A stretch of DNA of 64,000 bases from a virus: IMG/VR virus record IMGVR_UViG_3300021256_000097; one strand, written 5' to 3'. The position numbers were made by a program, and so were the translations under genes. Positions 27,804-52,382 of the stretch are shown one piece after another; within the stretch, counting starts at the first letter, position 1, and every line of letters starts with the position of its first letter. The notes under the pieces were generated by a model. The model saw only the letters and a list, made by a program, of their open reading frames with translations, ran no database searches and was not told where the DNA came from.

Positions 27804-28907
27804 ATGGACGAAATCAATGAAATCGTAAAAACATTGACAGAATGGCGGAATGCTTACTACAATGGTAGCCCAGTCGTATCAGACGCTGAGTTCGATGACC
27901 TTGAAGATAAGCTCAGACAGCTTGATCCAGATAACGAATACTTTAATGGAATTGGTGAAGATGAGCTGGATGGCTTTCCAAAAGCAAATCACACTATTCT
28001 TATGGGTAGCCAGGAAAAATGTAATACCGTTGAGGAAATTATCAAGAAGCTTAATCATTTTACTGGTAAAAAAGTTGCAATGCTTGTAGAGCCAAAATGT
28101 GATGGAATCAGTCTTGAATTGAACTACAAAGATGGAAAAGCAACAGCGCATATTACTCGTGGCAATGGTTATGTTGGTGATAACATTACTGTAAACGCTT
28201 CAAAAATGCAGGGTGTACCCGCGGGTATTCCTGTTTCGGAGGGTGTTGCTATTCGTGGCGAAATTATGCTGCTTCATTCTGATAAAGAAAAATATTTCCC
28301 AGAACTTAAGAACTGTCGTAATGGCGCTTCTGGTATTGCAAAGAATAAAGATGGAATCGGATGTGAGCATCTTACCGTTGTATGCTACGATTGCCAGTAT
28401 ACCGACGAGGATAAATCTTTCGGAACAGAAGCAAACAAACTCGACTTTCTTACTCAGTGTGGCTTTATGCGCGTAAATGCGGATATGGTTATTGCTGACT
28501 GTACAACTCCAGCTGGAATTAAAAAAGCTGCTGAAGATTTGATGGCAAAAATGAATGAGTTTACAATGACAGAACGTGAATATGACACTGATGGTGTTGT
28601 TGTTAAGCTCAACATTATCGATGACCACGATCTTCGTACAGAACTTCACCCAAAAACTCAGTGGGCCATTAAACCTGCTCGTGTAGAAGTTGAGACTACT
28701 CTTATCGATATTGAATGGAACATGACAAATGGTAGCCTGGTACCAGTAGCAATCTTTGAACCAGTTGTCCTGGATGGCGCAACAATCCAGCGTGCAAGCC
28801 TTGTAAATGTAGCAGAAATTGAACGTCTTGGCCTGTATATCGGCGCAAAGATTATGGTATCTCGAAGAAATCTTGTAATACCTAAAGTAGAGAGATTAGC
28901 TGCGTAA
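27804..28907 (+). CDS. ligA: NAD-dependent DNA ligase, N-terminal fragment (adenylation plus OB domain only)
   Basis: EPKCDGISLELNY (KxDG) and TRGNGYVGDNIT. It ends right after the OB-fold ...NLVIPKV, which matches LigA DVIPQV. Confidence 0.8.
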   Translation: MDEINEIVKTLTEWRNAYYNGSPVVSDAEFDDLEDKLRQLDPDNEYFNGIGEDELDGFPKANHTILMGSQEKCNTVEEIIKKLNHFTGKKVAMLVEPKCDGISLELNYKDGKATAHITRGNGYVGDNITVNASKMQGVPAGIPVSEGVAIRGEIMLLHSDKEKYFPELKNCRNGASGIAKNKDGIGCEHLTVVCYDCQYTDEDKSFGTEANKLDFLTQCGFMRVNADMVIADCTTPAGIKKAAEDLMAKMNEFTMTEREYDTDGVVVKLNIIDDHDLRTELHPKTQWAIKPARVEVETTLIDIEWNMTNGSLVPVAIFEPVVLDGATIQRASLVNVAEIERLGLYIGAKIMVSRRNLVIPKVERLAA

Positions 28908-28991
28908 GTTAAAAATAATTGCCAGAGTTCTATACTCTGGCTATTTATTTTACATATTATAATTGTTAACCTTATACAGAAGGAGGCAATT

Positions 28992-29333
28992 ATGTCTTAT
29001 GTTTTACCTAGAGAAATCGATGTAAAGATGCTTGCTGCAGTAGAGAAAGATAAGCAGGCTATTATCAAAGCTCTCTGGCCAAATGGCAGTTTTGATCCAG
29101 TACCAAATGAAGCTTTTGTAAAAAAATTCATGTCAATTAAGGACCCAATAAGACTCGCACGTCGTGCTAGAGCTTATGTATCTCTTGTTGGAAAGCCTTA
29201 TGTAAATGAAACCACTTTCACAAGCGAGTTTGCCTTGATAGTAAATCAGCTATGGAAAGCTGGATTTGATGGTCAGCAAATTCATGATATTGCACAAACA
29301 AAAGCTAATATTCCTGTTCTTATGAACATTTAG
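28992..29333 (+). CDS. Hypothetical protein
   Basis: Promoter 28952-28961 and a GGAGG RBS. Confidence 0.5.
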   Translation: MSYVLPREIDVKMLAAVEKDKQAIIKALWPNGSFDPVPNEAFVKKFMSIKDPIRLARRARAYVSLVGKPYVNETTFTSEFALIVNQLWKAGFDGQQIHDIAQTKANIPVLMNI

Positions 29334-29342
29334 GAGTTTAAT

Positions 29343-29876
29343 ATGAATCTTATCGTGGATAAGCCAAAATATTCTAATTGTCTCTTTGAAGCCATTAGGT
29401 ATAAGTGGAAAACACATGGTAAGATTTATTCACTTGATCGATTCTATCAGAATACCTTTTATAATGCACTTCGTAGAGATGACGAAGAAACTAACATACT
29501 TACCAAACATTACTTTGTAGTTACACCAGATTTTGAAAATGGTGAGATGGGGTATATTTACCAGTTTAAGTCAGCTAAGGCGAGAGTAAGGTTTCCTCTT
29601 CTTTTTAAGGGAAGCATTACAGCTATGTATAAAGATGATGGCTTTAATACCATGCTTTTCAATTTAGCTTGGGCCATGAATAAGCTTGGTTATTCAACAG
29701 AAGAGATTAAGAATAAAATTCTCGATTATGAAAATAAATGGCACTATAAATCTACTTTAGGAAGTCTTATTTGTAGAGGCATAAAAAAAGACTTGGAGCA
29801 AACTTATCGAGAAGCTTATCCAAGTCTTATTGCTGATTTAGAAGCAATTAAACTTACAATTGTGACGGTTTCCTAG
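29343..29876 (+). CDS. Hypothetical protein
   Basis: RBS plus ORF. Confidence 0.5.
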   Translation: MNLIVDKPKYSNCLFEAIRYKWKTHGKIYSLDRFYQNTFYNALRRDDEETNILTKHYFVVTPDFENGEMGYIYQFKSAKARVRFPLLFKGSITAMYKDDGFNTMLFNLAWAMNKLGYSTEEIKNKILDYENKWHYKSTLGSLICRGIKKDLEQTYREAYPSLIADLEAIKLTIVTVS

Positions 29877-30111
29877 AAGTATATGTTATTGTGCTATTAG
29901 GAAACTCTTTTTTAAGTTCAGCATATTTCTTTTTTGCTTCTGACTTAACATAGCTGCCTTTCTGTAAATTACCATCTACATAGAACAAATAAACACTTTC
30001 GAAATCATCATCTGGATTTCCAGTAATCTCGTGTCCATGTAAGCCTTTTTCAGCTGTAAGTTCTCTAAGGTGATTAGCCTTTTCGTAAATAGATTCAAAA
30101 ATTTTATCCAT
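29854..30111 (-). CDS. Possible minus-strand small protein
   Basis: ORF only. No clear RBS. Confidence 0.25.
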   Translation of the reverse strand: MDKIFESIYEKANHLRELTAEKGLHGHEITGNPDDDFESVYLFYVDGNLQKGSYVKSEAKKKYAELKKEFPNSTITYTSRKPSQL

Positions 30112-30178
30112 AATACATAATTAGCTTATACTTTCCAATTTTATTCTACATATTATAGATACTTAAAGGAGGAAGAAA

Positions 30179-30670
30179 GTGCTTAGAGAAGACGAAATTC
30201 AGATTATGCTCTATGCTATGAATCAGTATTGCGACGCAAACTTTATTGGTGAACGACGCCAGTATGCTAAGGCTTTCATAGCTGAGCTTGATCTTCAGAT
30301 TAACGCTGAATCATTCAGAAAAATAATTCAGGAAGTTGAGGAAAAATTTTCTAACAGAACTTTATGGGATGTTTACCGTAATGTTGCTATGAATCAGAAT
30401 TGGCCACTTAAAAAACATTTACGATGGGTTCACAATCACACTATTGATATGGACCTACTTTATACATATATGAATGACTTAATGCATAAAGAACTACCAA
30501 AAGCATGTTTTGACAATTTCGTTGTAAATTACCTTCAGCCTAAAGCTGAAACATACGTAAAGGTAATTGCGCCAGAAGCTGAAGCAGCTCGCGAAAAGTT
30601 GGAAGAAGCAAAGGATGAATCCAAGAGAGCATTGGAACGTGAAGAAGCATTTTTTAAGGGAGCCTATTGA
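30179..30670 (+). CDS. Hypothetical protein
   Basis: Promoter 30148-30157 and a GGAGG RBS. GTG start. Confidence 0.5.
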   Translation: MLREDEIQIMLYAMNQYCDANFIGERRQYAKAFIAELDLQINAESFRKIIQEVEEKFSNRTLWDVYRNVAMNQNWPLKKHLRWVHNHTIDMDLLYTYMNDLMHKELPKACFDNFVVNYLQPKAETYVKVIAPEAEAAREKLEEAKDESKRALEREEAFFKGAY

Positions 30671-30957
30671 TGGAAAAGTCTGATGGGATATTTGAAGAGT
30701 TTGAATCAAGTATGAATCAGATGCTTAAAGATGGTAAAGACTTCTGGCATGCGGCCAGAGTTATTGCGGGTAATCTTATTGAAAAATATTCAGAAGATAC
30801 TGTATCTGAAGCGTCCGTACTGATAAGAACAATGCCAAATAAAAATGCAAGCCTTGTATCTAGCTTGCTTCAATCCGAACTTGCAATGATGCATATGAAG
30901 TTTGTTAAGCCAGATGGTAAAGAATACCCTATGACTTATCAAAGAGTTTTCAAATAA
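30667..30957 (+). CDS. Hypothetical protein
   Basis: Coupled start. Confidence 0.45.
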   Translation: MMEKSDGIFEEFESSMNQMLKDGKDFWHAARVIAGNLIEKYSEDTVSEASVLIRTMPNKNASLVSSLLQSELAMMHMKFVKPDGKEYPMTYQRVFK

Positions 30958-31008
30958 TTTTTGGACTATAGAACTTTTGTAAACATATAATATATAATTG
31001 GAGGAATT

Positions 31009-31839
31009 ATGAATATTAAAGATTTTATCAAGGCAAATCCAAATGCGCAGAAATGGAATCTTCCATCAGTCTGTCCAGTTTGTGGAGCTGATCTTGAACT
31101 TAATGAAAATCATACAGACATCGTTTGTACGAATGAGGGCTGCAAATCAAAGCTTATCGGACGCTTAAAAAAGTGGGCTGAGAAACTTGAAATCAGAGAG
31201 CTTGCTCCTACAACTCTGGAAAAGTTCATTGATGGTGGTCTGATTAAGAATGTATCTGACCTTTATAAAGCAGACTTTTCTGTTATTGCAAATTGGCCCG
31301 GATTTGGTGAGCGTTCCGCTGAAATCTACAAGAAAAACATTTCAAAAGCAACAACTGCAACTCTTGCTCAGTTTATCGCAGGTTATAATATTGGTGATGT
31401 TGGTGAAAAAGTTGTTCAGAAGATTATTGATGCAAAAGGTATCCGCGAACTTTCTGAATTTGCAAATCTCAGAGCAGAAGATCTTGTTTGTGAAGGCGCT
31501 GGTATTACAACCACAAGAAAGCTTATTGATGGAATCTCAGCTGTCTGGGATGATATGCTTGAAACATCTAAGTACGTAGCAATCGAAGTACCAGCAGAAA
31601 AAGATTCTAACAAGCTCGCTGGAATGGTATTCTGCTTCACAGGAAAAGCTTGTCTTCCACGTCCGCAGCTTCAGGCAATGGCGGAAGCAAATGGTGGAAA
31701 GTGTGCTTCTTCAGTATCTAAGAATACAACTTATCTTGTAACTGATGATACAGACACTGGATCAAGCAAGAACAAGAAAGCTGCTGAGCTTGGTATCCCT
31801 GTAATCACATCAGAACAGTTCTTGGAGCTTGTAAAATAA
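31009..31839 (+). CDS. ligA: NAD-dependent DNA ligase, C-terminal fragment (Cys4 zinc finger, HhH, BRCT)
   Basis: CPVCGADL...CTNEGC zinc finger, HhH region, and BRCT (FCFTGK...LVTDD). It has its own promoter at 30983-30992 and its own RBS. Confidence 0.8.
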   Translation: MNIKDFIKANPNAQKWNLPSVCPVCGADLELNENHTDIVCTNEGCKSKLIGRLKKWAEKLEIRELAPTTLEKFIDGGLIKNVSDLYKADFSVIANWPGFGERSAEIYKKNISKATTATLAQFIAGYNIGDVGEKVVQKIIDAKGIRELSEFANLRAEDLVCEGAGITTTRKLIDGISAVWDDMLETSKYVAIEVPAEKDSNKLAGMVFCFTGKACLPRPQLQAMAEANGGKCASSVSKNTTYLVTDDTDTGSSKNKKAAELGIPVITSEQFLELVK

Positions 31840-43836: not shown

Positions 43837-43876
43837 GAAAATAATTAAATAAAAATATACTTTACAATAATAAATT

Positions 43877-43886
43877 ACATATTATA
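43877..43886 (+). promoter_or_regulatory. Promoter core ACATATTATA. It starts the transcript of about 420 nt that runs into tRNA-Leu.
   Basis: Core motif. No ORF lies downstream until the tRNA. Confidence 0.55.
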
Positions 43887-44304
43887 ATTGTTAGGTGATA
43901 AACCTAATCGACCTAAGGCGTGGTAGCCTAAATAGTGATGAAGTATAGGATAGCGGTGTGCTTAAGAGCTACGCGACAATTACGTTTCCTATATGGAGCT
44001 ATGGAAGAAAAGCTCAGAGTTTCCTAATTGGGCTCTAGACTTGGACCATACAGACCAAGAGATCCTAACCCTAGAGTTAGGGGATGCAACGGTACGGTTA
44101 TAAACAACGAGAAGCTTCAGAGTGAGCTAATCGGGTCCAGTTTCAAACGTGGGAACATCCGTATTCCGTGAGTTTACACGGACACATTAGAATTGAAGAG
44201 TAGGGTCATACGGGATACCGAAATTCGTATTATTGCTGGTCAGTGAAAAGTTAGAAGCCCTAGCATATGGCGTCTGGCTTGGAGACCGAAATATATGCTA
44301 ATCT
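43887..44304 (+). ncRNA. ORF-free structured leader of about 420 nt, a candidate ncRNA, between the promoter and tRNA-Leu
   Basis: Several hairpins, for example ttaggtgataaacctaa, cttggaccatacagaccaag and ccctagagttaggg. No ORF or RBS. Confidence 0.3.
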
Positions 44305-44339
44305 GCGTGAGTGGCGGAATTGGTAGACGCCCAGGACTT

Positions 44340-45026
44340 TGAAGTCTAGAATGTTTACAAACAATTTGTACTAATTTAATTATGATTAGTAATGAAGAGT
44401 TTATAAGCATTGTAGAAAAATGTCAAACAATGGCACTAGCTGCCAAAAAAGTTGGTATGGCCTATACTTCCTTTATTAGGAAGGCAAAAAAACTTGGTTG
44501 TTATAAACCAAATCAAGGCCATAAAGGTGTTAAAACTGGTCATCCATCAAATTGGATCCGGACAGAAGACATCTTAGCTGGTAAGTACCCACAGTATCAA
44601 ACATATAAGTTAAAAGCTAGACTTATAACTGAGGGGTATTTAGAGGACAAATGTTCTTTATGTGGTTGGGATAAAAAGCCAGAAGGAGCAAGATTTACTC
44701 CTTGTGAGCTTGACCATATAAATGGAAATCCAACGGATCACAGATTTGAGAACTTAAGATTGATTTGTCCTAATTGCCATTCTCTTACTGAGACATATCG
44801 TTTCAGAAGAGGTAAGACAAATGAGTCACAAGGTAGGAAACTCCTTGATGAGAATGAGGCTAATTCGACGAACCCTTAACGATAGTTAAAGCGTTATGGC
44901 AACGACGAGCTAAGCAAAATGTGTAGAGACTATACACCTCGTACCTAAACAGAAATGCATGGTAATGAAATAGTCCAGACCACAAACCTTTTGTTTGATA
45001 AGGGTAATGAAAGTTATGGTGGTAAG
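44340..45026 (+). mobile_element. Group I intron in the tRNA-Leu anticodon loop, carrying an HNH homing endonuclease ORF
   Basis: The 5' exon ends in U and the intron ends in G (ggtaag|aaaa). The IGS aagtc pairs with exon gactt. P7 R/S-like elements tagagacta (about 44925) and aatagtcc (about 44970) are present. The insertion site is the same as in the classic tRNA-Leu(UAA) intron. Confidence 0.7.
44382..44879 (+). CDS. HNH homing endonuclease (intron-encoded)
   Basis: CSLCGW...ELDHINGNPTDHRFENLRLICPNCHS is an HNH motif with zinc cysteines. Confidence 0.85.
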   Translation: MISNEEFISIVEKCQTMALAAKKVGMAYTSFIRKAKKLGCYKPNQGHKGVKTGHPSNWIRTEDILAGKYPQYQTYKLKARLITEGYLEDKCSLCGWDKKPEGARFTPCELDHINGNPTDHRFENLRLICPNCHSLTETYRFRRGKTNESQGRKLLDENEANSTNP

Positions 45027-45165
45027 AAAATCCTGTGCTCGCTAAGGGCGTACGGGTTCAAGTCCCGTCTCGCGCAATGCACAGTAAAGTCTTTTGAAAT
45101 AATAAAGGCCATGGGACACTTAAGCTGTACGCTTTAGCCTGCTTTTCTTTGGTGTAGCCCAAGTC

Positions 45166-45207
45166 GCGGATTGAGGTGAAAGATGGTTCGACTCCATCCG
45201 TTCCGCA
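45166..45207 (+). ncRNA. tRNA-like module with an acceptor-like stem and a T-arm but no D-arm or anticodon arm (tRNA mimic, possibly YrlA-like)
   Basis: gcgga...tccgc stem. T-arm gatgg-ttcgact-ccatc. Only 9 nt separate the 5' stem strand from the T-arm. Confidence 0.3.
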
Positions 45208-45574
45208 TACGTGGCATAGAATTGAGGAGTAAATTGATCCTATGTGCATTTAGTGGATATCCCTACTTGCGCAATAAAAATAGGGGATTTTGAACGATTT
45301 TGTGTCCGCATACGTCGAGGCGACGTCATATTGTAACAGGTATGACAGGCGGTGCAACTCTCGCTATGTATGCATAGTGTTCAGGCATGCCTAACACGAA
45401 TTGAAAATCGCCAGGAGTAATTGACGAAAATTACGCGCGTTAAAGTAGTTGATGAATTATACTGGGAGCCTTAGAAAAACAACTGAGCCGCACTTGGTTG
45501 CTAAGGTATTGGGACTCGTACCAATTGAATATCCTACGATAAAGGCAGGGATAGCCACAACATCCAACCTTTAT

Positions 45575-45659
45575 GTATCAGTGGTCGAGAGGTCGAAGAC
45601 AGCAGACTGTTAATCTGCCGAGCGAAAGCCCACCACAGGTTCGAACCCTGTCTGATACG
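45575..45659 (+). tRNA. tRNA with anticodon GTT (Asn-like) and an atypically long 16-nt variable region. Identity is uncertain.
   Basis: Acceptor gtatcag/ctgatac. Anticodon stem gcaga/tctgc with loop ctGTTaa. T-arm acagg-ttcgaac-cctgt. Confidence 0.5.
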
Positions 45660-46151
45660 CTAAAAATCCAGGATCTAATACCTGGTTAGAAGTGTATTAG
45701 AGACCTAATATGAGCGGATGGTTTTACCAGATGAAACTTGTATTAGAAGGCTATTACTTTACAAATACTGTACGCTTGTGTCAGTCCTTGCGTTAACGAT
45801 GCGCAGGTATAACGGCTGGGAAGGTTCGTAGAAAGCCTAAGCTTAGAGTACTATGCTCAATACCGTAAGTCCGTCGCCTCAAGTTTGATTCTACCTATTA
45901 TATGATAAGGGTCGACTGACAGCCTACGGAAGTTTAGGGATTGATAGTAGGTGACCAATTATACGAGTCGTAATCCCTTTATAAATAACCATTATATGGA
46001 AGAGTCCTTAGGGAATGGCCTACCGAAATGGTAACAATGGGAATTGAAGTACTATTGGGGAGTGAACCGATTATAGGAACATTGTAGTATAGTGGTATTT
46101 ATAAACGATTTTTGTTAGTTATGTTAGTTTTATACTTTATTTGGTAAGCTA

Positions 46152-46161
46152 ACATATTATA
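46152..46161 (+). promoter_or_regulatory. Promoter core ACATATTATA. It drives a transcript of about 260 nt that ends at the terminator at 46393-46424.
   Basis: Core motif with no ORF downstream. Confidence 0.55.
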
Positions 46162-46164
46162 AAT

Positions 46165-46428
46165 ATGAAATTATGCGTATAATATGAAAGTTGAAATTTC
46201 ATAAAATACGCTAATATAAATATAACAGAAAATGCTGTAGGATTAGGTTTACTTAGATTCTATTTTTGGTTTAGAAAAAACAAAGAGCCTATCCGATTTT
46301 TCGCTTTTCTTAATTTTGGAATTATATGTAAGCCGACTCCCTATTACCAAATCGGGACCCCTCCTTGTCGGATTCATATGAGACATAGTTACGGGAAGCA
46401 TGCGAATGCTTCCTTTTTTTTTATTTAT
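46165..46428 (+). ncRNA. Candidate small ncRNA, about 260 nt from promoter to terminator, immediately upstream of the Ro60-like gene (possible Y-RNA-like RNA)
   Basis: The unit is bounded by the promoter and the gggaagcatgcgaatgcttcc+T9 terminator. An internal 13-bp hairpin gcgtataatatgaaa/tttcataaaatacgc is present. No ORF or RBS. Confidence 0.35.
46393..46424 (+). terminator. Intrinsic terminator
   Basis: gggaagcat gcga atgcttcc plus T9. Confidence 0.7.
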
Positions 46429-46471
46429 AAAATTATTTAATAAACTTCAGTTTGAAGTGAGGAGAAATAAA

Positions 46472-47917
46472 GTGAGTAAGGTTAATCAGAAAGCCAGTGT
46501 AGCAGAAGCTAAGAAGGTTTATGTACCGGGCGTTAAGGAAGATGCAAGACGTACTCTTATGACTTGTCTCTTGTGGGAAGATGAATACTATGAAAATGGT
46601 GTTTCAATTGCTGACCGCCTTAGGGGATATGTAAAACGCCTTAGCGAGCAGGATTGTCGTGAATTGTTATTGGAAGCAAAGTTCCAGAACAAGCTTCGCC
46701 ACGCTCCATTATTCTGGGCTGTTCAGATGGCAAAAGAAGGAAAGCTTAAGGCAGACGATGTTGCAAAGATTTGTGACCGTGTAGATACAATGGCTGACCT
46801 TTTGGCTATTTACTTTGATGAAAACCCTCTTTCAGACTCAGAAAAGTCAAAGTGTTATAAAAACGGAAATCGTGTGCACCGTGATAACAAAGCGGTACCA
46901 AAAGCAATTACAAAGGGCCTTCAGAAAGCAATTGAAAACCCAAGATTCGACGAATACGCTTTTGCAAAGTATCGTCTTGAGGATAAAGCAATCAAGACTC
47001 GCGACGTAATTCGTCTTGCACACGTAAAGCCATCAACCCCAGAACGTTCAGCTTTGTATAAGAAAGTACTTGATGGCACACTTGCGACTCCAGATACATG
47101 GGAAGTAGCTATCTCTGCTGCAGGTTCAGACATGAACGCTAAGCGTGACGCTTGGACTCGTTTGCTTTCAGAGAATAAGCTTGGTGTATTGGCATTGCTT
47201 CGTAACCTTAATGGTATGAGCCGTGCAGGTGTTGACCAGGCTAAGATTCGTAAGGCAGTAAAAGCAGCTTCAATTGGTCGTGTACTCCCATTCCAGATTG
47301 TAACTGCTTCAAGACACGCGCCAGAATTGGCAGATGTATTGAACACAAAGTTCATGGAATCTGTTGAAAACGTTGAAAAGCTTGAGGGAGAATCTCTTGT
47401 ACTTGTAGATGTTTCTGGTTCTATGAATGCTCCATTGTCAGCTAAGTCTGATACAAAACGTGTAGACGTAGCTGCTGCTCTTGGAGCTCTTGTAAAGGAA
47501 GTAAGTAAGGGTAGCGTAATCTACGCATTCGACGACAGCCTTAGACCAGTATCAACTGACCTTGCTGGATTGCCACTTGTACGTGAGCTTTCAAGAAATG
47601 GTGGTTGTACTGCAGTAGCAGAGTGTACAGAAAGAGCTATTAAAAACTACAGAAATTCACATGGCGGACGTGATCCAGCTCGTGTTATTGTAGTAACAGA
47701 CGCTCAGGACAACTCTTCTTACAACCGCGGTTGGGGCTGTGAATACGATGTAGCACGTATGCCAAAGGTTCCTTATGGAACTGGTTACATTGTAAATGTT
47801 GGAGCTCAGAAGAATGGCGTTGAATACGCGCTTCACTCTGGCTGGATGACTGTTTACGGATGGTCAGACAATATTGTTAAGTACATTGCAGCTTTGGAAA
47901 ATGAAAGACGCAAGTAA
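46472..47917 (+). CDS. rsr: Ro60/Rsr-like protein (TROVE plus vWA)
   Basis: CLLWEDEYYENG (TROVE-like), ALLRNLNG (Ro60 ALLRNLG signature), and vWA MIDAS LVDVSGSM. GTG start after GAGGAG. Confidence 0.6.
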   Translation: MSKVNQKASVAEAKKVYVPGVKEDARRTLMTCLLWEDEYYENGVSIADRLRGYVKRLSEQDCRELLLEAKFQNKLRHAPLFWAVQMAKEGKLKADDVAKICDRVDTMADLLAIYFDENPLSDSEKSKCYKNGNRVHRDNKAVPKAITKGLQKAIENPRFDEYAFAKYRLEDKAIKTRDVIRLAHVKPSTPERSALYKKVLDGTLATPDTWEVAISAAGSDMNAKRDAWTRLLSENKLGVLALLRNLNGMSRAGVDQAKIRKAVKAASIGRVLPFQIVTASRHAPELADVLNTKFMESVENVEKLEGESLVLVDVSGSMNAPLSAKSDTKRVDVAAALGALVKEVSKGSVIYAFDDSLRPVSTDLAGLPLVRELSRNGGCTAVAECTERAIKNYRNSHGGRDPARVIVVTDAQDNSSYNRGWGCEYDVARMPKVPYGTGYIVNVGAQKNGVEYALHSGWMTVYGWSDNIVKYIAALENERRK

Positions 47918-51297: not shown

Positions 51298-51663
51298 GGG
51301 CCTGACTTTGGAATCGATTGGTATCAGAGTAGTCTATGTATCATGCACAGTGGTTATTGTACCCTAAAAGCAACGTAAGTAATCGACGCACAGAACGAAT
51401 ATGCAATGGCTGCGTAAGCAACCTAGCATCTAGAGACTTCGAGAGCTCTAGCGCTTGAACCAACAGATGTAGGTGGTATGGTTTTAAGTGTGGCTACTAC
51501 CTTCTAGGAAGCAGTGAGAGGCGGAGCGAGAGCTTGTAACTGTAACGACAATACTAGGGCAGAATCCGGTTGCCGGTCCCGAATCGAAAAAAGGCTTAAG
51601 CATGTAGAGAAGTACATATTCAAAAAGGTAAGCAAGACGAGAGTTCGAAACTCTCCAGGTCCA
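51298..51663 (+). ncRNA. ssrA: tmRNA (SsrA), standard one-piece form. The tag reading frame is (D)AQNEYAMAA-stop at 51385/51388-51417.
   Basis: The 5' end GGGCCTGACTTTGGAATCGATTGG matches tmRNA GGGGCTGATTCTGGATTCGACGGG. The conserved TAAGCATGTAG motif is present. The 3' tRNA-like end is gagag-ttcgaaa-ctctc plus acceptor caggtcc, which pairs with the 5' gggcctg. The ORF gca cag aac gaa tat gca atg gct gcg taa is present. Confidence 0.8.
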
Positions 51664-51689
51664 GTTCGGTAAATATAACTAATTTAAGT

Positions 51690-52382
51690 ATGGAAACAGA
51701 AAGAATTAGATATATTTATCAAATTACAAATTTGGTTAATGGAAAAACTTATTTTGGTCAACGTACTAGAAGCTTAAAGTATACTTCTTCTTTAGCAGAT
51801 ATGTATTGGGGATCAGGAGTTTTATTAAAAAAAGCTAAAGAAAAATATGGCTTAGAAAATTTTGAGAAGAAAATTATAATAGAGGGTCATTTTTCTAAGG
51901 AACAGATAAATCGCTTTGAAAGATGTATAATACGTATTCAGCGTTTTATAGGTAAAGCAGAGTATAATCTTGCAGATGGTGGTGATGGTGGTGATACCTC
52001 AAGATTTATAGATTATTCCTCAATTGAACGTTCAGAAAATATTTCGAATGCAATGAAGGAAGCTTATAAAGAAGGTAAAATAAAACCACGCGGGTGGACC
52101 TTTCATAAGGGTATGAAAGGGAAACATCAATCTGATGATGCTAAAGAAAAAATTCGAAAGGCACAGTCAGGATGTAAAAATTCACAATATGGCAAGCATC
52201 GTTCTGAAGAAACAAAAAAGCGAATACGAACTGCTTTAGCGAGAGATTATAAAGCTGAATATAAAGAGCTGTATGAAGCTTTTTTAGACCATGTTTTATC
52301 TTCTGATGAAAAAAGGCTTTTTGCTAAGAAATATAATATTGCATATGACTCTATAAATAGAGTTTTAAGGCAATTTATATAG
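51690..52382 (+). CDS. GIY-YIG homing endonuclease (I-TevI/Seg-like, with NUMOD3 repeats), free-standing directly after the tmRNA
   Basis: YIYQITNLVNGKTYFGQ (GIY-YIG), YNLADGGDGGDT, and repeated KGMKGKHQSDDAKEKIRKA / QYGKHRSEETKKRIRTA NUMOD3-like motifs. Confidence 0.85.
   Translation: METERIRYIYQITNLVNGKTYFGQRTRSLKYTSSLADMYWGSGVLLKKAKEKYGLENFEKKIIIEGHFSKEQINRFERCIIRIQRFIGKAEYNLADGGDGGDTSRFIDYSSIERSENISNAMKEAYKEGKIKPRGWTFHKGMKGKHQSDDAKEKIRKAQSGCKNSQYGKHRSEETKKRIRTALARDYKAEYKELYEAFLDHVLSSDEKRLFAKKYNIAYDSINRVLRQFI

What the first reader, a model, noticed from the sequence alone, without database searches (positions are those of the whole stretch)
44305..45076. Phage tRNA-Leu(UAA) split by a group I intron at the U34/A35 site, with an HNH homing endonuclease inside
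The 5' exon (44305-44339) ends ...cagga-cT-T. The 3' exon (45027-45076) begins AAaa-tcctg. Joined, they give a class-II tRNA-Leu with anticodon loop cuUAAaa. This is exactly the insertion site of the well-known tRNA-Leu(UAA) group I intron of cyanobacteria and plastids. The 687-nt insert has these group I features:
- It ends in G.
- An IGS (aagtc) can pair with the exon end (gactt).
- P7-like tagAGACTAta and aATAGTCc elements are present.
- It carries a 165-aa HNH endonuclease ORF.
An intron-containing, endonuclease-bearing tRNA-Leu(UAA) in a phage of an SD-using, low-GC host is unusual. It bears on the horizontal mobility of this intron lineage.
Basis: partly seen in the sequence, partly recalled or inferred. 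Interest (0 to 1): 0.75.

Follow-up and report, generated by a model that had tools for sequence, protein, structure and literature searches.

The report
Mobile intron inside phage tRNA-Leu gene
A leucine tRNA gene of a very large uncultivated phage is split by a self-splicing-type (group I) intron carrying its own DNA-cutting enzyme; it is a real, recently mobile, phage-borne member of the classic tRNA-Leu intron family of bacteria and chloroplasts.

Summary
Joining 44305-44339 to 45027-45076 gives an 85-nt class-II tRNA-Leu(UAA). The 687-nt insert lies between U34 and A35.

The insert is a group I intron of the tRNA-Leu(UAA) IC3 family:
- Rfam alone is sub-threshold (27.5 bits, E 1.6e-4).
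- A covariance model built only from relatives hits 44819-44987 at 102 bits (E about 1e-22).
- The P2-P8 structure is backed by covariation across 33 distinct sequences.

The real one is GAGUC at 44823-44827. The 165-aa HNH gene (44382-44879) therefore lies in the P1 loop, and its last 19 codons double as IGS, P2, P3, P4 and the start of P5.

The HNH is intact (pN/pS 0.20). The intron is mobile:
- It is 99.4% identical in another phage contig whose tRNA exons are only 87% identical.
- It is 91% identical inside a quite different tRNA-Leu body.

The HNH family is tied to phage tRNA-Leu(UAA) genes in general, free-standing or intron-borne. Splicing and cleavage remain untested. I found no published report of an intron in a phage tRNA gene. 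All components are of known kinds, so the interest is moderate.

The parts
44305..44339 (+). tRNA-Leu(UAA) 5' exon (acceptor 5' strand, D-arm, anticodon stem 5' strand, C32 U33 U34)
   Evidence: ARAGORN on the joined exons gives tRNA-Leu(taa), 85 nt; sequence.
44340..45026 (+). Group I intron, 687 nt, IC3 tRNA-Leu(UAA) family
   Evidence: Rfam RF00028 at 27.5 bits, E 1.6e-4. Custom model R1 at 102.3 bits, E 1.9e-22, on 44819-44987. Column-for-column alignment with ~200-nt ORF-less relatives.
44340..44822 (+). L1: the loop of P1, expanded from about 8-13 nt in ORF-less relatives to 483 nt by the endonuclease gene
   Evidence: In ORF-less relatives the GAG guide lies 8-13 nt after the 5' splice site. 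In the window, L001-L004 and L206 it lies 458-537 nt after it.
44382..44879 (+). HNH endonuclease ORF, 165 aa. The last 19 codons (44823-44879) overlap IGS, P2, P3 5' strand, P4 5' strand and the start of P5.
   Evidence: Pfam PF01844, phrog_10822. Invariant CxxC...ELDHING...N...CPNCH. pN/pS 0.20 against L206. AlphaFold model with pLDDT 83.7.
44823..44827 (+). Internal guide sequence GAGUC. It pairs with exon G44335-U44339 to form P1, with U44339.G44823 at the 5' splice site.
   Evidence: Aligned to the invariant uGAG of all relatives. The pairs are intact in the window and in L206.
44830..44846 (+). P2 hairpin AAGG(U)AG-GAAA-CUCCUU with a GAAA tetraloop
   Evidence: P2 pairs covary across the family (helices 1-2).
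44854..44859 (+). P3 5' strand AUGAGG (pairs with 44937-44942)
   Evidence: 5 of 6 P3 pairs show compensatory changes and 99% of cells are paired.
44865..44908 (+). P4 (44865-70 / 44903-08, with one A.A mismatch at 44868/44905) enclosing P5/P5a (44874-81 / 44892-99) and the 10-nt loop AUAGUUAAAG
   Evidence: P4 cells are 99% paired across the family. The P5 extension covaries with L002 (AACG/CGUU vs ACAG/CUGU).
44909..44922 (+). Minimal P6 (G.U and C-G only); the P6a arm of the relatives is missing
   Evidence: cmsearch alignment.
44928..44933 (+). P7 5' strand GACUAU (guanosine-binding helix)
   Evidence: 99.4% of P7 cells are paired across the family (helix 9).
44937..44942 (+). P3 3' strand CCUCGU
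44943..44963 (+). P8 hairpin with a CCUAAA...CAUGG receptor-like internal loop and a GAAA loop
   Evidence: helices 10-11.
44970..44975 (+). P7 3' strand AUAGUC
44980..45022 (+). P9 (CCAC 44980-83 / GUGG 45019-22) enclosing hairpin P9a (44984-96) and P9b (45004-17, GUAAU-GAAA-GUUAU)
   Evidence: Alignment shows covarying P9b stems (UAAU/GUUA, UAGU/ACUA, CAAC/GUUG, CGGC/GUCG). The pairs are intact in the window and in L206.
45026..45026 (+). Terminal guanosine (omega-G) at the 3' splice site
   Evidence: Sequence. A conserved ...UAAG|AAAAUCC junction is seen in all relatives.
45027..45076 (+). tRNA-Leu(UAA) 3' exon (A35 A36, anticodon stem 3' strand, long variable arm, T-arm, acceptor 3' strand, discriminator A; no encoded CCA)

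Best explanation
A tRNA-Leu(UAA) gene of a very large uncultivated phage is interrupted between U34 and A35 by a mobile group I intron of the IC3 tRNA-Leu(UAA) family.

Inferred mechanism:
1. The precursor is transcribed.
2. The exon end GACUU pairs across the 483-nt L1 loop with GAGUC (44823-27) to form P1 with a U.G wobble.
3. The P3-P9 core folds. L2 and L9b GAAA tetraloops probably dock on receptor-like motifs in P8 and P5.
4. An exogenous guanosine bound in P7 attacks after U44339.
5. Omega-G45026 then replaces it, and the exons are ligated into a functional tRNA-Leu.

The intron's L1 loop encodes a two-domain protein: an N-terminal three-helix DNA-binding-like domain and a Cys4 zinc-finger HNH nuclease. 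This protein is inferred to cut intron-less tRNA-Leu(UAA) genes of co-infecting phages around the conserved GGACUU|AAAAUCC anticodon region. Repair from the intron-bearing copy then spreads the intron together with short stretches of flanking exon (homing).

Shown here: the tRNA, the ribozyme architecture and its conservation, an intact and selected HNH gene, and recent horizontal spread.
Inferred only: self-splicing activity, nuclease specificity, and how the ORF is expressed (no Shine-Dalgarno sequence precedes the ATG).
For: tRNA: the joined exons give tRNA-Leu(taa).

Ribozyme:
- Rfam RF00028 hit at E 1.6e-4, with P3, P4-P6, P7, P8 and P9 aligned.
- 9 of the 10 ORF-less relatives searched pass Rfam gathering at 58.8-69.3 bits, and L003 passes at 67.4.
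- Model R1 was trained without the window or its closest relative L002. It gives one strong full-length hit, 44819-44987, at 102.3 bits, E 1.9e-22.
- The same model finds untrained cyanobacterial tRNA-Leu introns at 113-124 bits.
- Across 33 distinct sequences, 93.1% of pair cells are paired, against 72.3% in shuffles and 31-46% when partners are slid. 24 of 39 pairs show double changes. The covariation score is 0.553 against 0.156.
- All window helices are intact except one A.A in P4 and one U.U in P5.
- U.G at the 5' splice site and omega-G are present.

Selection:
- Of the 12 core differences from L206, 10 are unpaired and the 2 paired ones keep pairing (U.G to C-G).
- HNH pN/pS is 0.20.
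- The catalytic and zinc residues are invariant.

Mobility:
- In L210 the intron differs at 4 of 687 positions (99.4%), but the exons differ at 11 of 85. The exon differences all lie at least 13-19 nt from the junctions, and the flanking genome is unrelated.
- In L206 the intron is 90-94% identical but sits in a different tRNA-Leu body (exon 1 66% identical) and a different genome context.

Target link: in roughly two-thirds of 84 loci the HNH homologue lies within or less than 300 nt from a tRNA-Leu(taa) gene.
Against: - No experiment shows splicing or cleavage.
- The Rfam score in the window is below the gathering threshold (27.5 vs 50).
- The window and L002 are the lowest-scoring members with the family model.
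- P4 carries an A.A mismatch, which is conserved in L206, and P6 is reduced to two pairs.
- MFE folding of the core is no better than shuffles (z = -0.8).
- P1 must form across 483 nt, and the ORF lacks a recognisable Shine-Dalgarno sequence.
- No intron-less allele with these exact exons was found, so presence/absence polymorphism in this lineage is not shown.
- The HNH has no significant match to any solved or characterised homing endonuclease.
Confidence: 0.85

Rival explanations
1. The intron is a decaying relic. The tRNA-Leu gene is insertionally inactivated, or splices too poorly to matter, and only the HNH gene is maintained.
For: - Sub-threshold Rfam score.
- Lowest family-model scores for the window and L002.
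- A.A mismatch in P4 and a near-absent P6.
- MFE no better than shuffles.
Against: - All substitutions relative to L206 avoid or preserve paired positions.
- The core is more conserved (94%) than the ORF-only part (90%).
- U.G, omega-G and every core helix are present.
- The exons still fold into a canonical tRNA, with compensatory acceptor-stem changes between the window and L210.
Confidence: 0.08
2. The insert is a protein-spliced intron at a canonical-like position in the anticodon loop, and the gene is tRNA-Ser(UGA). This is how ARAGORN's intron mode annotates it.
For: ARAGORN -i reports tRNA-Ser(tga) with a 685-nt intron starting at position 39.
Against: - Bacteria and their phages are not known to have the splicing endonuclease (established knowledge).
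- A group I core occupies the insert.
- The D-arm GGAAUUGGUAGAC and discriminator A are tRNA-Leu features.
- ARAGORN calls Leu(taa) with the intron at the 34/35 junction in relatives L001-L004.
- The U.G / omega-G boundaries give a 7-nt CUUAAAA loop.
Confidence: 0.02
3. The HNH protein is not a classical homing endonuclease for the intron insertion site. It may act like T4 SegB, cutting elsewhere in tRNA clusters to favour inheritance of the whole region. Alternatively it may have another role, such as a splicing helper.
For: - Most family members are free-standing next to intron-less tRNA-Leu(UAA) genes, including in the cultured phages Aeromonas avDM4 and Edwardsiella PEi26.
- In L210 the homology block is the whole tRNA gene, not just the intron.
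- No similarity to characterised homing enzymes.
Against: - The intron is far more conserved than the exons (99.4% vs 87%). Exon differences start only 13-19 nt from the junctions, which is the pattern expected from cleavage near the insertion site with short co-conversion.
- The only sequence shared by all host genes is the anticodon stem-loop.
Confidence: 0.1

Closest known systems
[quoted passage not shown]
   Same: - Same host gene and same insertion site (CUU|AAAA, between U34 and A35).
- Same short CUU/GAG P1, and same P2-P9 core with conserved GUAGAGACU...AGUCC P7 strands.
- One covariance model finds both. The site nomenclature is in bioRxiv 10.1101/2020.01.27.920355 and PMC13011429.
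   Different: - Phage-borne.
- Carries a sense-strand HNH gene in L1 that overlaps IGS to P5.
- P6 is nearly deleted; P5 is extended.
- Only 53-57% identical to cyanobacterial cores, against 66-69% to the three closest Bacteroidota cores (a fourth is 64%) and to phage ORF-less cores.
HNH-encoding tRNA-Leu(UAA) intron of Bacteroidota (PMC13011429) and the bacterial cases found here (Acidobacteriota L184, Gammaproteobacteria L197)
   Same: A tRNA-Leu(UAA) intron longer than 500 nt that holds an HNH (PF01844) gene. L184 and L197 encode relatives of this same HNH family.
   Different: In L184, L197 and phage L079 the HNH lies antisense in the P6 region. In the window it is sense in L1, so these are independent insertions. 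The layout of the Bacteroidota case could not be checked.
Azoarcus tRNA-Ile(CAU) intron (IC3)
   Same: A compact IC3 core in a tRNA anticodon loop, with GAAA tetraloops in L2 and L9 and receptor-like motifs in P8 and P5. This comparison rests on my knowledge of the Azoarcus structure and on the sequence.
   Different: Different tRNA and insertion site, and no ORF.
Synechocystis tRNA-fMet intron with its endonuclease (Bonocora and Shub 2001, cited in PMC3984707)
   Same: A group I intron in a tRNA anticodon loop whose encoded endonuclease targets the anticodon region of the intron-less gene.
   Different: A PD-(D/E)XK-type enzyme, tRNA-fMet, position 33/34, and a bacterial chromosome.
Phage group I introns with HNH enzymes (I-HmuI of SPO1, I-TwoI of Twort, I-PfoP3I, PMC3428280)
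   Same: A phage-borne group I intron plus an HNH gene, spread by homing.
   Different: Those introns interrupt protein-coding genes. As of 2014 all known phage introns did (PMC3984707). I-HmuI-type enzymes belong to the HNH_3/NUMOD class. Here HNH_3 is below its cut-off (23.1 vs 24.8 bits), there is no NUMOD motif, and a Cys4 zinc finger is present.
Free-standing endonucleases beside their targets: T4 SegB in the tRNA cluster (PMC2330249); F-CphI beside the cyanophage psbA intron ('collaborative homing', Zeng, Bonocora and Shub 2009, from my own knowledge)
   Same: Most relatives of this HNH are free-standing. They lie about 60-300 nt from a tRNA-Leu(UAA) gene that is either intron-less or carries an ORF-less intron.
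   Different: In the window the gene is already inside the intron. SegB is a GIY-YIG enzyme.

Membership tests
Group I intron | Sequence-plus-structure match to the conserved catalytic core (P3-P9) | tested here: met
   Rfam RF00028 alone gives 27.5 bits, E 1.6e-4, below the gathering score of 50. Model R1 was built from relatives, most of which (every one I searched except L084) pass Rfam gathering. It gives 102.3 bits, E 1.9e-22, full length, as the only strong hit in 64 kb.
Group I intron | P1 formed by the 5' exon end and an internal guide, with U.G at the 5' splice site | tested here: met
   G44335-U44339 pair with G44823-C44827, with U44339.G44823. The guide aligns with the conserved uGAG (UGGG in one, L171) of 38 relatives. 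There is no covariation, because CUU/GAG is fixed by the anticodon loop.
Group I intron | 3'-terminal guanosine (omega-G) | tested here: met
   G45026; a conserved ...G|AAAAUCC junction in all relatives.
Group I intron | P3/P7 pseudoknot and the P4-P6 and P8 helices supported by covariation | tested here: met
   93.1% of cells paired; 24 of 39 pairs with double changes; 0 of 500 shuffles reach the score; slid controls give 31-46%. The alignment was fitted to the model, which favours the structure somewhat.
Group I intron | Guanosine-dependent self-splicing | not testable with these tools
   Needs in vitro transcription and splicing, or RNA from infected cells.
tRNA-Leu(UAA) IC3 intron lineage | Insertion between U34 and A35 of tRNA-Leu(UAA) | tested here: met
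   Anticodon loop C-U-U|A-A-A-A.
tRNA-Leu(UAA) IC3 intron lineage | Homology to accepted members in cyanobacteria and other bacteria | tested here: met
   The same model finds Oscillatoria, Calothrix, Nodularia, Leptolyngbyaceae, Acidobacteriota, Bacteroidota and Burkholderia tRNA-Leu introns. Core identity to the window is 53-81%.
tRNA-Leu(UAA) IC3 intron lineage | Formal IC3 subgroup assignment with subgroup covariance models | not tested
   Subgroup models are not available here. The L2 and L9b GAAA tetraloops and receptor-like motifs in P5 and P8 are consistent with IC3.
HNH homing endonuclease | Beta-beta-alpha-Me HNH catalytic motif intact | tested here: met
   PF01844 at 25.7 bits against a cut-off of 21.4. 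Invariant C91, C94, D111-H112, N124, C129, C132, H133. In the AlphaFold model the HNH-domain residues ~61-130 have block-mean pLDDT 91-96.
HNH homing endonuclease | Gene embedded in, or adjacent to, a self-splicing intron or its target gene | tested here: met
   Inside L1 here. The family is linked to tRNA-Leu(taa) in roughly two-thirds of 84 loci.
HNH homing endonuclease | Evidence of horizontal spread (element more conserved than host gene and flanks) | tested here: met
   Intron 99.4% against exons 87%, with unrelated flanks, in L210. Intron 91% identical in a different tRNA-Leu body in L206.
HNH homing endonuclease | Site-specific cleavage of the intron-less allele | not testable with these tools
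   Requires a biochemical assay.
I-HmuI-like (HNH_3 / NUMOD) intron endonucleases | HNH_3 domain with NUMOD DNA-binding modules | tested here: not met
   PF13392 at 23.1 bits, below the cut-off of 24.8, and no NUMOD hit. No PDB sequence match at E <= 1. The profile reaches only IscB and maturase HNH domains at E 0.16-0.32. Fold hits are weak and McrA- or Cap5-like.

The most novel reading that the evidence does not exclude
Phage-borne, HNH-armed tRNA-Leu(UAA) introns may be the vehicle that has moved this 'ancient' intron between bacterial phyla.

The HNH family also seems to preserve, in one data set, every stage in the birth of a mobile intron:
- an endonuclease free-standing beside an intron-less target;
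- an endonuclease beside an ORF-less intron (collaborative homing);
- an endonuclease captured inside the intron at least twice independently (sense in L1; antisense in P6).

If so, the long dispute over vertical versus horizontal inheritance of the tRNA-Leu intron becomes directly testable with phage crosses.
Probability: 0.3. Interest if true: 0.75.

Novelty: new member of a known kind. Interest (0 to 1): 0.5.

Why it matters
The tRNA-Leu(UAA) intron is the textbook 'ancient' bacterial and plastid intron. Whether it spreads horizontally has long been argued, and almost all known copies lack an endonuclease gene (PMC13011429).

A 2014 review stated that every phage intron then known sits in a protein-coding gene, despite the many phage tRNA genes (PMC3984707). 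I found no later report to the contrary in the searchable literature.

This locus and its many metagenomic relatives show three things:
- Phage tRNA-Leu genes do carry this intron.
- Some copies are armed with an HNH gene.
- At least this one moved very recently between different phage genomes.

There is also a practical point. Standard tRNA finders and Rfam at default thresholds miss the gene entirely, so tRNA repertoires of large phages are under-counted.

Tried and rejected
It leaves a 2-nt loop, gives no U.G, and is not conserved.
- My own first guess for P9 (CAAAC/GUUUG) was demoted to a lineage-specific P9a. The family alignment showed that CCAC/GUGG is P9.
- MFE folding of the core was uninformative (z = -0.8).
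- Megablast of the locus against GenBank phages found nothing.
The model was therefore cut after P7/J9, and P9 to omega-G rest on the alignment alone.
- The genome scan pattern CAAATTCNGNGAAACC was too loose. Most of the 120 loci were chance hits; 22 held tRNA-Leu introns.
- Searches for an intron-less allele, or for relatives of this phage by exon or flank strings, found nothing in IMG/VR or JGI metagenomes.
- PDB sequence, profile and fold searches gave no significant match for the HNH protein.
- The supplements of PMC13011429 did not reveal the layout of the Bacteroidota HNH intron.
- Eight literature searches found no paper on group I introns in phage tRNA genes. Subscription journals are not covered, so this absence is weak evidence.
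Full report
**1. Observation**

ARAGORN and Rfam at default settings see only tRNA-Gln, tRNA-Asn and a tmRNA in the window, and nothing at 44305-45076.

Joining 44305-44339 to 45027-45076 gives an 85-nt sequence that ARAGORN calls tRNA-Leu(taa). It has a 7-bp acceptor stem (one G.U), the GGAAUUGGUAGAC D-arm typical of tRNA-Leu, a CAGGA/UCCUG anticodon stem, a CUUAAAA loop, a long variable arm, a GGGUUCAAGUCCC T-arm and discriminator A.

With intron search on, ARAGORN spans the same 774 nt. It places the intron a few nucleotides downstream in the anticodon loop (position 39) and so mislabels the gene tRNA-Ser(tga). In four relatives it calls Leu(taa) with the intron starting at position 35-36, that is at the 34/35 junction.

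**2. The insert is a group I intron, with the ORF in the P1 loop**

A permissive Rfam scan gives Intron_gpI at 44777-44999: 27.5 bits, E 1.6e-4, below the gathering score of 50. P3, P4-P6, the two P7 strands, P8 and P9 are aligned.

Relatives settled the matter. The HNH protein retrieved 80 IMG/VR loci. In these, ARAGORN finds two arrangements:
- tRNA-Leu(taa) genes with 653-742-nt introns holding the HNH gene (L001-L004; L079 on the opposite strand);
- about 200-nt ORF-less introns at the same site just upstream of a free-standing HNH gene (L024, L045, L072, plus several miscalled as 'Tyr').

Nine of the ten ORF-less relatives I searched pass Rfam's gathering score (58.8-69.3 bits); L084 was not listed. 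L003 passes at 67.4.

MAFFT aligns the last 215 nt of the window intron column for column with these short introns, from AAAUGAG to the terminal G. In the short introns the GAG guide lies 8-13 nt after the 5' splice site. In the window it lies 483 nt after it. The ORF therefore occupies L1.

The real P1 is GACUU (44335-39) paired with GAGUC (44823-27), with U44339.G44823. That is five pairs, against three in most relatives. This fits what is known of the Anabaena intron, where P1 is weak and the anticodon stem helps (Zaug et al. 1993, cited in PMC3984707; my recollection of its content).

**3. Independent model and covariation**

I built covariance model R1 from 15 relatives: phage ORF-less introns, phage L1-HNH introns, and introns from Acidobacteriota, Bacteroidota, Rhodobacter, Gammaproteobacteria and Nodularia. 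The window and its closest IMG/VR relative L002 were left out.

On the whole window R1 gives one strong, full-length hit: 44819-44987, 102.3 bits, E 1.9e-22. The next hit has E 0.66. The model also finds untrained cyanobacterial tRNA-Leu introns at 113-124 bits. The window and L002 are the most divergent members.

On the 34-sequence alignment (33 distinct rows), with P7 added as a pseudoknot:

| Measure | Observed | Controls |
|---|---|---|
| Pair cells that are standard pairs | 93.1% | 72.3% in shuffles; 31-46% with partners slid |
| Pairs with changes on both sides | 24 of 39 | - |
| Covariation score | 0.553 | 0.156 in shuffles; 0.122 or less slid |

P3 is the clearest case. The window has AUGAGG/CCUCGU where the ORF-less phage introns have UUCCUC/GGGGAA. 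The alignment was fitted to the model, so these figures lean towards the structure. The raw MAFFT alignment shows the same compensations.

Window anatomy:
- P2: 44830-46, with a GAAA loop.
- P3: 44854-59 paired with 44937-42.
- P4: 44865-70 paired with 44903-08, with one A.A mismatch.
- P5/P5a: 44874-81 paired with 44892-99.
- P6: reduced to two pairs.
- P7: 44928-33 paired with 44970-75.
- P8: 44943-63.
- P9: 44980-83 paired with 45019-22, enclosing P9a and a covarying P9b with a GAAA loop.
- Omega-G: 45026.

**4. The ORF**

ORF 44382-44879 (165 aa) matches Pfam HNH above its cut-off and phrog_10822 at E 9e-27. It has 621 homologues, up to 92% identical.

The family alignment shows invariant CxxC, ELDHING, N124 and CPNCH, a Cys4 zinc-finger HNH. 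AlphaFold (pLDDT 83.7) gives an N-terminal three-helix bundle, the beta-beta-alpha core and a low-confidence C-terminal helix.

No solved structure matches significantly. The weak hits are McrA, Cap5, IscB and maturase HNH domains, and small helix-turn-helix domains. I-HmuI is not among them.

The last 19 codons (NESQGRKLLDENEANSTNP) are the IGS (GAG = Glu148), P2, P3 5' strand, J3/4, P4 5' strand and the start of P5, where the stop codon lies. At least 68 of the best 120 homologues carry this RNA-dictated 'NE..GRKLL' tail. Others carry the tail expected from the L003-type P2. The L1-embedded form is therefore common in metagenomes.

Against the L206 copy, pN/pS is 0.20.

**5. Mobility**

The exact protein occurs on 11 contigs.

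L210 (a 2.2-kb contig from another run) matches the window only over 44304-45077, at 98% identity. Within that block the intron differs at 4 of 687 positions and the exons at 11 of 85. The exon differences include compensatory acceptor-stem changes, and none lies closer than 19 nt upstream or 13 nt downstream of the junctions. The flanks are unrelated and hold other tRNA genes.

L206 (a 48-kb contig) has a 687-nt intron that is 90-94% identical. It sits in a clearly different tRNA-Leu(UAA) body (exon 1 66% identical) and a different context. Of the 12 core differences from L206, ten are unpaired and two convert U.G to C-G.

This is the signature of recent homing with short co-conversion tracts, and of selection on both the RNA and the protein.

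**6. The wider family**

In roughly two-thirds of 84 loci the HNH homologue lies inside, or within 300 nt of, a tRNA-Leu(taa) gene. Usually it is 60-70 nt downstream.

GenBank phages show the free-standing form, unannotated:
- Aeromonas avDM4 (just upstream of tRNA-Leu);
- Edwardsiella PEi20/PEi26 and huge phage LR756502 (just downstream).

The 735-kb phage LR756501 has an ORF-less 205-nt intron.

Related HNH genes lie antisense in the P6 region of phage L079 and of bacterial introns in an Acidobacteriota MAG and a Gammaproteobacteria MAG. The enzyme has therefore entered the intron at least twice.

The only sequence shared by all host genes is GGTAGAC...GACTT|AAAATC.

**7. Origin of the window**

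It comes from a 940,564-bp metagenomic scaffold. Its content is phage-like: an rIIB homologue (E 8e-68), a SegE-like endonuclease, DnaB, a helicase loader, a clamp loader, a primase-like protein, ClpP, RNase III, a sigma factor and many ORFans. It has no close cultured relative. GC content is about 36%.

**8. Comparison with what is known**

The intron is a member of the tRNA-Leu(UAA) IC3 family. It is closest to other phage L1-HNH copies (70-81% for L002, L004 and L001; L003 is 64%), then to phage ORF-less and Bacteroidota copies (mostly 66-69%). It is farthest from cyanobacterial copies (53-57%).

Endonuclease-bearing tRNA introns are rare in bacteria: 12 of 333, including one HNH case in a Bacteroidota tRNA-Leu(UAA) (PMC13011429). 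The 2014 review PMC3984707 states that all phage introns then known were in protein-coding genes. Eight literature searches found nothing later on phage tRNA introns, but the library omits subscription journals.

**9. Verdict**

All parts are of known kinds, so I rate it a new member of a known kind.

Two aspects are worth recording. The phage tRNA setting appears to be unreported. The intron has also demonstrably moved recently.

Splicing and cleavage remain untested.

Noticed in passing
whole window (source record): The exact HNH protein maps the window to ENA scaffold SHIW14-1_SAMN02144230-S004_METAG-scaffold_1, which is 940,564 bp long. The content is phage-like (rIIB, SegE-like endonuclease, replication genes, ORFans). 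If this is one genome, it would exceed the 735-kb phage in GenBank (LR756501).
   Followed up: partly
window 27804-31839: The NAD-dependent DNA ligase is split. The adenylation and OB domains are at 27804-28907. The zinc finger, HhH and BRCT domains are at 31009-31839. Between them lie 2.1 kb with two ORFs that have no family match (29343-29876, 30179-30670). This may be another intron or a mobile insertion. There is no Rfam hit there.
   Followed up: partly
window 51298-52382: A GIY-YIG + NUMOD3 SegE-like homing endonuclease gene (51690-52382; phrog_314 E 8e-30) starts 24 nt after a phage-encoded tmRNA (51298-51666; tag DAQNEYAMAA).
   Followed up: partly
window 45077-47917: A TROVE/Ro60-like gene (46400-47917) is preceded by 1.3 kb without ORFs. 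This stretch holds an odd 86-nt tRNA-Asn(GUU) with a long variable arm (45575-45660) and a T-arm-like GGUUCGACUCC at about 45186. It may hold Y-RNA-like or tRNA-like partner RNAs. There is no Rfam match.
   Followed up: no
window 43861-44304: A near-consensus sigma-70-like promoter (TTTACA-16-TATAAT, 43861-43888) is followed by 417 nt without a convincing ORF before the tRNA 5' exon. The function of this leader is unknown.
   Followed up: no
L008/L009 177-333 (about 135-400 with exons): The same phage contigs that carry an HNH-bearing tRNA-Leu intron have a second intron of this family (R1, 83.9 bits). By eye, it splits a class-II tRNA-Tyr(GUA) between U35 and A36, with CUGU/GCAG as P1. A 2026 paper highlighted 35/36 as an insertion site typical of Patescibacteria (PMC13011429).
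   Followed up: partly
L003 2883-3698; L024 2666-2940: In some phages the intron, with or without HNH, sits in a 74-75-nt class-I-shaped tRNA with a UAA anticodon rather than in a class-II tRNA-Leu. Many free-standing HNH genes also neighbour 73-76-nt 'tRNA-Leu(taa)' calls.
   Followed up: no
L001 about 2990, L004 about 2990, L005 about 2975: A T4-late-promoter-like TATAAATA lies a few nucleotides upstream of the HNH start codon in several relatives. L002 and L008 have Shine-Dalgarno motifs instead. The window copy has neither.
   Followed up: no
L005-L007 2853-3465: An HNH that is 65% identical to the window's is free-standing, 63 nt downstream of an intron-less tRNA-Leu(UAA). That tRNA's anticodon loop reads CUUAAGA (G37 instead of A37). 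This may be a target-site variant that protects the carrier genome.
   Followed up: no
L024 5334-5586: A phage contig carrying the ORF-less tRNA-Leu intron also encodes a cyanobacterial-type (permuted) tmRNA (RF01851, 72.4 bits). This suggests a cyanophage.
   Followed up: no
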